A DNA stretch of 37,768 bases from a virus (Duplodnaviria; Heunggongvirae; Uroviricota; Caudoviricetes), in the IMG/VR virus record IMGVR_UViG_2526164599_000010. One strand, given 5' to 3'. Shown one piece after another: positions 874 through 2,839 of this stretch. Position numbers and translations under genes: made by a program. The notes below the pieces were generated by a model that did no database searches, was not told the DNA's origin, and saw only the letters and a list, made by a program, of their open reading frames with translations. The stretch's first letter is position 1. Every line of letters starts with the position of its first letter.

Positions 874-2046
874 ATGCTGAGCAGAGAGGATTTTTACATG
901 ATAAAGCAAATGCGCCAGCAAGGTGCGTATATTGTTGATATTGCCACTCAGGTTGGTTGCTCTGAGCGGACCGTCAGACGGTACCTGAAATACCCGGAAC
1001 CTCCGGCCAGAAAAACACGCCACAAAATGGCCAAACTCAAGCCGTTCATGGACTATATAGATATGCGTCTGGCTGAGAACGTCTGGAACGGCGAGGTCAT
1101 CCTGGCGGAAATCAAAGCGATGGGTTATACCGGTGGCCGTTCCATGTTGCGCTACTACATCCAGCCCAAACGTAAGATGCGGCCATCGAAGAAAACGGTT
1201 CGCTTCGAAACTCAGCCCGGTTACCAGCTACAGCATGACTGGGGAGAAGTTGAGGCTGAGGTTGCCGGGCAACGATGCAGGGTTAACTTCGCGGTTAATA
1301 CGCTGGGGTTCTCACGTCGCTTCCATGTCTTCGCGGCACCAAAGCAGGATGCTGAACATACCTATGAGTCACTGGTCCGCGCCTTTCGCTACTTCGGCGG
1401 TAGCGTGAAAACCGTGCTGGTCGATAACCAGAAAGCCGCAGTTCTGAAAAATAACAATGGGAAGGTGGTGTTCAACTCCGGGTTCCTGCTGCTGGCCGAT
1501 CACTATGGCTTCCTGCCACGGGCCTGCCGTCCACGAAGGGCCAGAACCAAAGGTAAGGTTGAACGGATGGTGAAATACCTCAAGGAAAACTTCTTCGTCC
1601 GGTACCGCCGGTTCGACAGCTTCGCCCATGTTAACCAGCTACTGGAGCAGTGGATGGCTGACGTTGCTGACAGGCGAGAACTTCGCCAGTTCAGGCAGAC
1701 ACCGGAACAGCGCTTCACGCAGGAACAGGAGCATCTGCATCCGCTGCCGGGTACGGACTTCGATACCAGCTATTTCGATATCCGTCATGTCTCCTGGGAT
1801 GGCTATATCGAGGTTGGCGGGAACCGTTACAGCGTACCGGAAAGCCTGTGTGGCCAGCCGGTATCAATACGGATCTCGCTGGATGATGAACTACGGATCT
1901 ACAGTAATGAGCAACAGGTAGCATCGCACCGTCTCTGTTCGGCTGCATCCAGCTGGCAAACCGTGCCGGAGCATCACGCCCCACTCTGGCGGCAGGTCAG
2001 TCAGGTGGAACACAGACCGTTGAGTACGTATGAGGAGCTGTTGTGA
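874..2046 (+). CDS. istA: IS21-family transposase IstA
   Basis: 390-aa ORF with N-terminal HTH-like region (MLSREDFYMIKQMRQQGAYIVDIATQVGCSERTVRRYL) and integrase-core region; stop overlaps the istB ATG (TGATG at 2044..2048). Confidence 0.9.
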   Translation: MLSREDFYMIKQMRQQGAYIVDIATQVGCSERTVRRYLKYPEPPARKTRHKMAKLKPFMDYIDMRLAENVWNGEVILAEIKAMGYTGGRSMLRYYIQPKRKMRPSKKTVRFETQPGYQLQHDWGEVEAEVAGQRCRVNFAVNTLGFSRRFHVFAAPKQDAEHTYESLVRAFRYFGGSVKTVLVDNQKAAVLKNNNGKVVFNSGFLLLADHYGFLPRACRPRRARTKGKVERMVKYLKENFFVRYRRFDSFAHVNQLLEQWMADVADRRELRQFRQTPEQRFTQEQEHLHPLPGTDFDTSYFDIRHVSWDGYIEVGGNRYSVPESLCGQPVSIRISLDDELRIYSNEQQVASHRLCSAASSWQTVPEHHAPLWRQVSQVEHRPLSTYEELL

Positions 2047-2839
2047 TGCATGAACTGGAGACACTGCTGAGTCGTCTTAAAATGGAACATCTGGGCTACC
2101 ACGTTGAAAGCCTGCTGGAGCAGGCGGCCAAAAAGAACTGAACTACCGCGAGTTCCTGTGCATGGCGTTGCAGCAGGAATGGAACGGGAGGCATCAGCGC
2201 GGTATGGAGTCCCGGCTGAAACAGGCCCGCTTCCCGTGGGTCAAAACGCTGGAGCAGTTCGACTTCGGCTTCCAGCCAGGTATCGATCGTAAGGTCGTCC
2301 GTGAGCTGGCCGGGCTGGCGTTCGTGGAGCGTAGCGAGAACGTGATCCTGCTGGGTCCGCCCGGTGTGGGTAAAACGCACCTGGCAGTCGCTCTCGGGGT
2401 AAAAGCGGCGGACGCTGGTCATCGGGTACTGTTCATGCCACTGGATAAGCTGATCGCCACACTCATGAAGGCAAAACAGGAAAACCGGCTGGAAAAACAG
2501 CTACAGCAGCTTGGTTATGCCCGGGTACTGATACTGGATGAGATAGGCTATCTGCCGATGACCCGCGAGGAAGCCAGTCTGTTCTTCCGGTTGCTGAACC
2601 GTCGATATGAAAAAGCGAGCATCGTGCTGACATCAAATAAAGGGTTCGCCGACTGGGGAGAGATGTTCGGCGATAACGTGCTGGCAACGGCAATCCTGGA
2701 TCGACTGCTCCACCACTCAACCACACTGAACATCAAAGGAGAAAGCTACCGGTTAAAGGAAAAACGCAAAGCGGGAGTGCTGGCAAAAAACGCCACGCCA
2801 ATCAGTGATGATGAAATGGCGGAAAGCGGACAACATTAA
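2046..2839 (+). pseudogene. istB: IS21-family helper ATPase IstB, disrupted by a -1 frameshift in an A5 run (2130..2134)
   Basis: ATG at 2046 opens [30 protein letters not shown] then stops at TGA 2139..2141; the rest (ELNYREFL...[11 protein letters not shown]...IKGESYRL) is open in the adjacent frame to 2839. One extra A in the run would give a contiguous ~264-aa IstB. Confidence 0.75.

What the first reader, a model, noticed from the sequence alone, without database searches (positions are those of the whole stretch)
2046..2839. istB of the inserted IS is split by a single-base deletion in an A-run (2130..2134)
istB starts at the canonical ATG overlapping the istA stop (TGATG), reads 31 codons and stops at TGA 2139..2141. 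The rest of IstB (ELNYREFL... through Walker A/B to ..IKGESYRL..) is open in the neighbouring frame. One additional A in the AAAAA run would fuse the two parts into a normal ~264-aa IstB. Either the IS is a transposition-defective copy (IstB is the ATPase helper for target capture) or this is a homopolymer sequencing error.
Basis: seen in the sequence. Interest (0 to 1): 0.5.

Follow-up and report, generated by a model that had tools for sequence, protein, structure and literature searches.

The report
Frameshifted istB in an ISEc62 copy
An ordinary ISEc62 insertion sequence sitting in a Mu-like prophage tail-fibre gene has lost one A from a six-A run in its helper gene istB, which either kills that gene or is a sequencing slip, and neither would be surprising.

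Summary
Window 773..2896 is a 2,124-bp copy of ISEc62 (IS21 family), with a 4-bp target duplication (ACGG), inserted in the Sv' tail-fibre gene of a Mu-like prophage. Its istB starts at ATG 2046, overlapping the istA stop. It reads 31 codons and stops at TGA 2139..2141. The other 233 codons are open in the -1 frame. Adding one A gives a full-length 264-aa IstB (Pfam IstB_IS21, E 1e-87).

Six As is the norm: 128 of 130 complete E. coli records, 93 of 94 plasmid records, and all 22 viral, metagenome and GTDB copies. So this is not programmed recoding. Apart from the missing A, this copy differs from the E24377A copy by one substitution (IstA Q373R).

The five-A allele recurs at nine or more other insertion sites, on three ISEc62 sequence backgrounds. 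NCBI's pipeline already labels it "frameshifted".

The window is the start of a draft contig (AIHI01000017.1). All 49 Mu gene homologues are intact, but the contig end carries a clear 1-bp deletion artefact. Without reads, a real slippage mutation (about 50%) and a homopolymer error (about 42%) cannot be separated.

If real, the copy is non-autonomous. Interest is low.

The parts
773..2896 (+). ISEc62 (IS21 family) copy, 2,124 bp; the canonical element is 2,125 bp
   Evidence: It is 99.9% identical over its full length to copies that RefSeq annotates as 'IS21-like element ISEc62 family'. The ends are TGTCAGCGCCAA... and ...TTGGCGTTGACA. It differs from the E24377A copy only by G1991 and the missing A.
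769..772 (.). Left copy of the 4-bp target-site duplication ACGG
   Evidence: ACGG lies directly before the left IS end and again directly after the right end. Other copies also carry 4-bp duplications: AAGA, CGAC, TTGA.
2897..2900 (.). Right copy of the 4-bp target-site duplication ACGG
   Evidence: Joining 772 to 2901 restores the Sv' reading frame (...NYRNG|GIFYRSARDG...). Mu S' residues 3-222 match upstream of the IS and residues 221-328 match downstream.
874..2046 (+). istA, intact, 390 aa (HTH, DDE rve and Mu-transposase C-terminal domains); carries a private Q373R change (G at 1991)
   Evidence: Pfam PF00665 rve E 6e-14, PF22483 E 5e-17, HTH_23. The substitution is shown. This exact protein is found on only this contig in the 153-billion-gene index.
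2046..2141 (+). istB 5' fragment: 31 codons ([31 protein letters not shown]) followed by TGA
   Evidence: It was called as a separate 31-aa gene in the source record (L031 2048-2143).
2130..2134 (+). A5 run; intact copies have A6. This is the site of the one-base loss. In the broken frame it creates ..A_AAG..
   Evidence: Alignment A1. The A-run length is 6 in all 22 unselected copies and 5 in the frameshifted ones.
2135..2839 (+). istB 3' part in the -1 frame (IstB residues 31-264: remainder of the N-terminal domain plus the whole AAA+ module). The first in-frame start is ATG 2162 (= Met40).
   Evidence: ORF 2162..2839, 225 aa; IstB_IS21; the AAA+ crystal construct 5bq5 aligns from residue 62.
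72..772 (+). 5' part of the Mu-like tail-fibre variable gene Sv' (G segment), cut by the IS
   Evidence: Mu S' residues 3-222 match the ORF 72..800 at 83% identity.
2897..3222 (+). 3' part of Sv', downstream of the IS
   Evidence: Mu S' residues 221-328 match the ORF 2860..3222 at 97% identity.

Best explanation
The element is an ordinary ISEc62 (IS21 family) that transposed into the Sv' tail-fibre gene in the invertible G segment of a Mu-like prophage, leaving a 4-bp duplication. After insertion, replication slippage contracted the A6 tract at istB codons 29-30 to A5.

As recorded, translation that is coupled to istA through the TGATG overlap ends after 31 residues. The AAA+ module lies out of frame. 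The only in-frame restart, Met40, has no evident Shine-Dalgarno sequence. It would also give a protein without the N-terminal domain, which IstB needs to dimerise, form the DNA-bending decamer and contact IstA.

The copy still has an intact transposase (IstA) and both ends, but it makes no functional target-capture ATPase. It is therefore non-autonomous: it can move only if IstB is supplied in trans, or through a rare -1 ribosomal slip at the A_AAG that the deletion itself creates, which would rebuild the exact wild-type protein.

Shown: the identity of the IS, the one-base difference, the A6 norm, and the recurrence of the A5 allele. Inferred: that the deletion is real in this strain, loss of function, trans-complementation, and leakiness.
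For: - IS identity and boundaries.
- A6 with a 264-aa IstB is the norm. In complete E. coli genomes, 128 of 130 records have no A5 copy (281 places). In PLSDB the figure is 93 of 94 records. All 9 viral contigs, all 12 metagenome contigs and the 1 GTDB genome contig have A6.
- The A5 allele recurs at nine or more other insertion sites on three ISEc62 sequence backgrounds, in polished complete genomes and in Logan run assemblies. This run is therefore a genuine place where the element breaks.
- The same copy carries a private substitution, IstA Q373R, found on no other contig, whereas the top 40 E. coli hits all give the same score. This suggests the copy has truly diverged a little.
- The rest of the window is clean. 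All 49 Mu gene homologues are full length, and none of the 153 homopolymer runs of 5 or more bases outside the IS breaks any of them.
- The second A6 run of the IS (2785-2790) has no A5 allele in 129 records. This weakly argues that A5 alleles at 2130 are not simply generic A6 miscalls.
- IstB is essential for integration (PMC10122671). Its N-terminal domain is required for dimer and decamer formation, and the isolated ATPase module does not bind IstA (PMC11208146). The frameshift falls within that domain.
Against: - No reads are available, and the change lies in a homopolymer, the classic site of an undercall.
- The source is a draft contig (GCA_000250375.2, AIHI01000017.1).
- The first ~170 bases of that contig are an inverted copy of window 5542..5709 with one base missing at 94/95. 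This is almost certainly an artefact, so single-base deletion errors do occur in this assembly.
- The copy is otherwise nearly identical to active copies, which is what an error would also look like.
- No second sequencing of this insertion exists: the junction protein is unique to this assembly, and no complete E. coli genome has the junction.
Confidence: 0.5

Rival explanations
1. This is a sequencing or assembly error. The strain's element has A6 and an intact 264-aa IstB, and the consensus undercalled the homopolymer by one base.
For: - The change is a one-base loss in one of the two longest homopolymers of the IS.
- Apart from one SNP, the copy is identical to intact copies.
- The source is a draft contig, and its first ~170 bases carry a demonstrable 1-bp deletion relative to the same sequence at 5542..5709.
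- From my own memory, unverified: the AIHI WGS prefix belongs to a 2012 batch of E. coli drafts that may include pyrosequencing data. I could not retrieve the paper.
Against: - No other frameshift occurs in 49 conserved phage genes or across 153 homopolymer runs of 5 or more bases, 48 of them 6 or more. The per-run error rate in well-covered sequence is therefore at most a few per cent.
- The only proven indel error lies at the extreme contig end, where coverage is atypical.
- The same allele exists in many independent assemblies from different pipelines.
- The copy also carries a private substitution, which is not a typical consensus error.
Confidence: 0.42
2. This is programmed recoding. ISEc62 normally makes IstB by a -1 ribosomal frameshift or by transcriptional slippage at the A-run, as IS3 and IS1 family elements make their transposases.
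For: In the broken frame the sequence reads C_AAA_AAG. It contains the minimal E. coli -1 shift site A_AAG (PMC5009743), and a -1 slip there would yield exactly the wild-type protein. A GGAG lies about 11 nt upstream.
Against: - About 99% of copies have A6 and a continuous 264-aa ORF, so no recoding is needed.
- The site is not a full X_XXY_YYZ heptamer.
- The 80 nt downstream fold no better than shuffled sequence (z = -0.28).
- Five As is too short for appreciable RNA-polymerase slippage (established knowledge).
- IS21-family elements are not known to use recoding for IstB, and 'IS21' is not mentioned in the held part of the recoding review.
Confidence: 0.03

Closest known systems
ISEc62 (IS21 family), for example the copies in E. 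coli E24377A (NC_009801.1 2926363..2928487)
   Same: The two are 99.9% identical over the whole length. They share the same terminal inverted repeats, the same overlapping istA/istB arrangement (TGATG) and 4-bp target duplications.
   Different: The window copy is one A shorter (A5 rather than A6 at istB codons 29-30), so istB is split. It also has one substitution in istA (Q373R).
Frameshifted ISEc62 istB pseudogenes already in RefSeq: NZ_CP169399.1 locus ACE00D_RS00635, NZ_AP043637.1 locus ACZ50V_RS06440, and plasmid NZ_AP025752.1
   Same: The A6-to-A5 change is identical and gives the same 31-codon stub. PGAP labels the two chromosomal copies 'frameshifted'; the plasmid copy has no istB annotation in the PLSDB gene table.
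   Different: The insertion sites differ (a HlyD-family gene, ypjA, the pemK region), and so do the ISEc62 sequence backgrounds (5 to 35 SNPs from the window copy).
IS5376 IstB of Geobacillus stearothermophilus (PDB 8q3w, 8q4d, 5bq5), the structural model for IS21-family helper ATPases
   Same: The repaired protein aligns over residues 10-242 with E 5e-66. It has the same layout of an N-terminal helical domain plus an AAA+ module.
   Different: It is a different element and host. Here the gene is interrupted within the N-terminal domain.
Compensatory -1 frameshifting at A_AAG in E. coli (reviewed in PMC5009743)
   Same: The deletion produces an in-frame A_AAG, and a -1 slip there would restore the wild-type IstB sequence.
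   Different: There is no evidence of a stimulator. Any rescue would be incidental and weak, and it was not measured.

Membership tests
IS21 family insertion sequence (ISEc62) | Near-identity of the DNA to named ISEc62 copies over the full length | tested here: met
   99.9% identity over 2,124 of 2,125 bp to many records annotated as 'IS21-like element ISEc62 family'. There are two differences from the E24377A copy.
IS21 family insertion sequence (ISEc62) | Two consecutive genes, istA (DDE transposase) then istB (AAA+ helper), translationally coupled | tested here: met
   istA is 874..2046 and the istB ATG is at 2046, overlapping the TGA. This matches the RefSeq annotation of the intact copy.
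IS21 family insertion sequence (ISEc62) | IstA with an N-terminal HTH, an rve DDE core and a Mu-transposase-like C-terminal barrel | tested here: met
   Pfam HTH_23/HTH_7, PF00665 (52.5 bits against a cut-off of 32.6) and PF22483 (61.8 bits against 27).
IS21 family insertion sequence (ISEc62) | An intact IstB ORF with the IstB_IS21 AAA+ domain (Walker A and B) | tested here: not met
   The domain is present and complete only after one A is added (294 bits). As recorded, the ORF is split into 31 aa and 225/234 aa. The element is therefore a member by descent whose helper gene is, as written, a pseudogene.
IS21 family insertion sequence (ISEc62) | Terminal inverted repeats ending 5'-TG...CA-3' and a short (4-8 bp) target duplication | tested here: met
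   The left end TGTCAGCGCCAA and the reverse complement of the right end TGTCAACGCCAA match at 11 of 12 positions. ACGG is duplicated at 769-772 and 2897-2900.
Programmed -1 ribosomal frameshift site | The frameshift is conserved in relatives and needed to make the product | tested here: not met
   Relatives have A6 and one continuous ORF.
Programmed -1 ribosomal frameshift site | A slippery heptamer X_XXY_YYZ plus a downstream stimulatory structure | tested here: not met
   The site is C_AAA_AAG, so only the A_AAG tetramer is present. The downstream 80 nt give z = -0.28 against shuffles.
Mu-like phage G (invertible) segment, the host of the IS | Sv-U and U'-Sv' gene pairs in opposite orientation between inverted gix repeats, next to the constant part of S | tested here: met
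   The window aligns with Mu at about 97% identity. S, U, U' and S' homologues lie at 4316-6076(-), 3787-4314(-), 3225-3758(+) and 72-800 plus 2860-3222(+). The invertase gin is not in the window.

The most novel reading that the evidence does not exclude
The A6 tract at istB codons 29-30 of ISEc62 may be a recurrent slippage hot spot that repeatedly produces A5 'helper-less' copies; about 1% of copies are A5, on at least three sequence backgrounds. These copies may not be dead. The deletion automatically creates an in-frame A_AAG shift site at which a rare -1 ribosomal slip rebuilds the exact wild-type IstB. Together with IstB supplied in trans, this would make the tract a crude, reversible throttle on transposition rather than a simple knockout.
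Probability: 0.1. Interest if true: 0.3.

Novelty: already known. Interest (0 to 1): 0.08.

Why it matters
It matters little. For annotation, the two ORFs 2046..2141 and 2162..2839 should be recorded as one frameshifted istB pseudogene of ISEc62, or corrected if reads show A6. They are not two genes. For biology, if the change is real, this IS copy cannot move on its own, so the disruption of the phage's Sv' tail-fibre gene is effectively fixed unless another ISEc62 supplies IstB. The survey adds one small practical point: this A-run is the place where ISEc62 istB is repeatedly found broken in public assemblies. Curators can therefore expect the same 'frameshifted' flag elsewhere.

Tried and rejected
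- **Same insertion elsewhere.** I looked for it in other genomes so as to read the A-run independently. No complete E. coli genome has the Sv'/IS junction. The junction protein and this IstA variant occur only on the source contig.
- **Finding the window in public collections.** The A5 45-mer gave no match in IMG/VR. A pattern accepting A4 to A8, run against the metagenome and GTDB-representative collections, found only A6 copies.
- **Sequencing platform of the source assembly.** Accession searches found nothing, a title search found nothing useful, and the DOI I recalled is not held.
- **Programmed frameshift.** Rejected on the A6 norm and on the lack of downstream structure.
- **Spread of the A5 allele by transposition from a single mutant.** Not supported. 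A5 copies fall on the canonical, 'B' and 'C' backgrounds roughly in proportion to how common those backgrounds are among A6 copies, which fits recurrent independent events.
- **Control on the other A6 run of the IS (2785-2790).** None of 129 records has an A5 allele there, against 2 of 130 at the focal run. The numbers are too small to mean much.
- **A5 copies within one genome.** The search tool lists one place per record, so I could not count how many ISEc62 copies in AST262 or MFDS1022581 are A5.

Full report
**Observation.**
- istA is an intact 390-codon ORF at 874..2046.
- istB begins at ATG 2046..2048, sharing its A with the istA stop (TGATG).
- The istB frame reads GCC AAA AAG AAC TGA across 2127..2141, giving 31 sense codons and then a stop at 2139..2141.
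- The run 2130..2134 is AAAAA.
- From GAA 2135 the neighbouring (-1) frame is open to TAA 2837..2839. It encodes ELNYREFL..., Walker A (GPPGVGKT), Walker B (LILDE) and ...IKGESYRL.
- Adding one A gives a 264-aa protein. It matches Pfam IstB_IS21 over the whole profile (E 9.7e-88) and the solved IS5376 IstB (8q3w, E 5e-66).

**What the element is.**
- Window 773..2896 (2,124 bp) is 99.9% identical over its full length to many E. coli sequences that RefSeq annotates as 'IS21-like element ISEc62 family transposase / helper ATPase IstB'. All of those copies are 2,125 bp.
- In E24377A the intact copy has istA and a 795-nt istB overlapping by one base.
- The ends are TGTCAGCGCCAA... and ...TTGGCGTTGACA, flanked by a 4-bp direct repeat ACGG (769..772 and 2897..2900). 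Other copies also have 4-bp duplications.
- Against the E24377A copy, the window copy has only two differences: the missing A, and G for A at 1991, which changes IstA Gln373 to Arg.

**Is A6 the norm?**
A 66-base probe centred on the run, carrying A5, matched 281 places in 130 records of complete E. coli genomes. Only two records have an exact A5 copy; in the other 128 the best match is 98.5% or less, a one-base gap in every listed row.
- In PLSDB, 1 of 94 records is A5.
- All 9 IMG/VR contigs, all 12 metagenome contigs and the one GTDB-representative contig that match the flanks have A6 and a continuous 264-aa IstB.

The frameshift is therefore a departure from the functional consensus, not a designed feature.

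**Recurrence of the same allele.**
- The two E. coli chromosomes with A5 carry the IS in a HlyD-family gene and in ypjA. PGAP marks both istB genes 'frameshifted'.
- The PLSDB case lies beside pemK.
- Looking up the exact 225-aa downstream product in the index of public assemblies returned 11 contigs, of which 10 were shown. Seven of the 10 are A5, including the source of this window. The other three have different frameshifts in the same short N-terminal stretch, or are truncated.
- The flanks show nine or more distinct insertion sites besides this one.
- The A5 copies fall on three ISEc62 sequence backgrounds: canonical; a 5-SNP variant; and a variant differing at about 35 sites. The proportions are similar to those among A6 copies. 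The change has therefore arisen, or been miscalled, several times independently.
- The second A6 run of the IS (2785..2790) shows no A5 allele in 129 records. The numbers are too small for a firm contrast.

**Source and quality of the sequence.**
- The window is bases 3..37770 of contig AIHI01000017.1 (413 kb) of NCBI assembly GCA_000250375.2.
- It is a Mu-like prophage, about 97% identical to Mu and D108, read in reverse.
- All 49 Mu gene homologues present are full length.
- The few indels relative to Mu are compensated, in-frame or intergenic.
- None of the 153 homopolymer runs of 5 or more bases outside the IS breaks a gene. The body of the contig is therefore accurate.
- The first ~170 to 195 bases of the contig, however, are an inverted copy of window 5520..5709 (the constant part of S plus gix) with one base missing at 94/95.
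- That arrangement is the G(-) junction appended to a G(+) assembly, so both copies derive from the same single-copy DNA. The missing base is almost certainly an error. Single-base deletions thus do occur in this assembly, at least at a thinly covered end.
- I could not establish the sequencing platform.

**Real mutation or error?**
No independent sequencing of this insertion exists, so reads are needed.

My rough weighing is as follows. The public frequency of A5 is about 1% per copy. The upper bound on the per-run error rate in this contig, from zero errors in 48 to 153 runs, is of the same order.
- The private IstA substitution in the same copy argues mildly for true divergence, because the top 40 database copies all give the same score.
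- The homopolymer context, the draft status and the contig-end artefact argue for error.

I put a real mutation at about 0.5 and an error at about 0.42.

**Consequence if real.**
IstB is essential for IS21-family integration (PMC10122671). Its N-terminal domain makes the dimers that assemble into the DNA-bending decamer, and the isolated ATPase module cannot engage IstA (PMC11208146). The frameshift falls at residue 30/31, inside that domain; the AAA+ crystal construct aligns from residue 62.

The 31-residue stub and any product restarted at Met40 should both be inactive. ATG 2162 is the first start in that frame, and I see no obvious Shine-Dalgarno sequence upstream of it. The copy keeps an intact transposase and both ends, so it would be non-autonomous rather than inert, because IstB from another ISEc62 could act on it (inference).

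One detail is worth recording. The deletion turns AAA AAA GAA into AAA AAG AAC, creating an in-frame A_AAG. That is the minimal -1 shift site in E. coli and is known to compensate nearby -1 mutations (PMC5009743). A slip there would give ...AAKKELNY..., the exact wild-type sequence. Nothing suggests it is efficient: the site is not a full heptamer, and the 80 nt downstream fold no better than shuffles (z = -0.28).

**Comparison with what is known, and verdict.**
This is a member of ISEc62 by every test except integrity of istB. The same broken allele is already present, and flagged, in RefSeq. Programmed recoding is excluded as the normal mode of IstB expression. The finding is correct but ordinary: either a decayed IS copy or a homopolymer miscall.

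Noticed in passing
window 1..195 versus 5520..5709: The first ~170 to 195 bases are an inverted copy of the constant part of tail-fibre gene S plus the gix site. They are identical apart from one missing base at 94/95 (AAAAGACCGG becomes AAAAGCCGG), which would frameshift an Sc-Sv' fusion. The window starts 2 nt from the start of contig AIHI01000017.1. This looks like the G(-) junction assembled onto a G(+) contig from a population in which the G segment inverts. gin, com and mom are absent from the window.
   Followed up: partly
window 72..800 and 2860..3222 (+): ISEc62 interrupts Sv', the tail-fibre variable part used in the G(-) orientation, at about residue 221 of Mu S'. The phage could therefore make a complete fibre only in the G(+) orientation. 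My own knowledge, not tested: the extra 2.1 kb also brings a Mu-sized genome close to its headful packaging limit.
   Followed up: partly
window 1991: A G-for-A substitution changes IstA Gln373 to Arg. This exact IstA sequence is found on no other contig in the public gene index.
   Followed up: yes
window 33067..33560 (-): Mu gp6 and gp7 have no counterpart here. A stretch of the same length carries unrelated ORFs of 89 and 70 aa, so the semi-essential early-region cassette has been replaced.
   Followed up: no
window 30145..30468 (-): An extra 107-aa ORF lies between the homologues of Mu gp13 and gp14. It occupies about 290 bp that are absent from Mu.
   Followed up: no
window 4316..6076 (-): The tail-fibre protein S is 586 aa, against 504 aa in Mu. 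Only the first ~186 residues and the last ~90 resemble Mu S, so the G(+) host-range part differs.
   Followed up: no
L030 (CBWJ010000158.1) and L029 (ERZ27273484 contig_382_polypolish): Other public ISEc62 copies carry different frameshifts in the same short N-terminal stretch of istB: a deleted G at IS position 1321, and an inserted G just before the A-run. L028 and L034 combine the A5 allele with a second frameshift in istA.
   Followed up: partly
window 2785..2790: The other A6 run of the IS, near the 3' end of istB, is intact here. No A5 allele of it was found in 129 E. coli records.
   Followed up: yes
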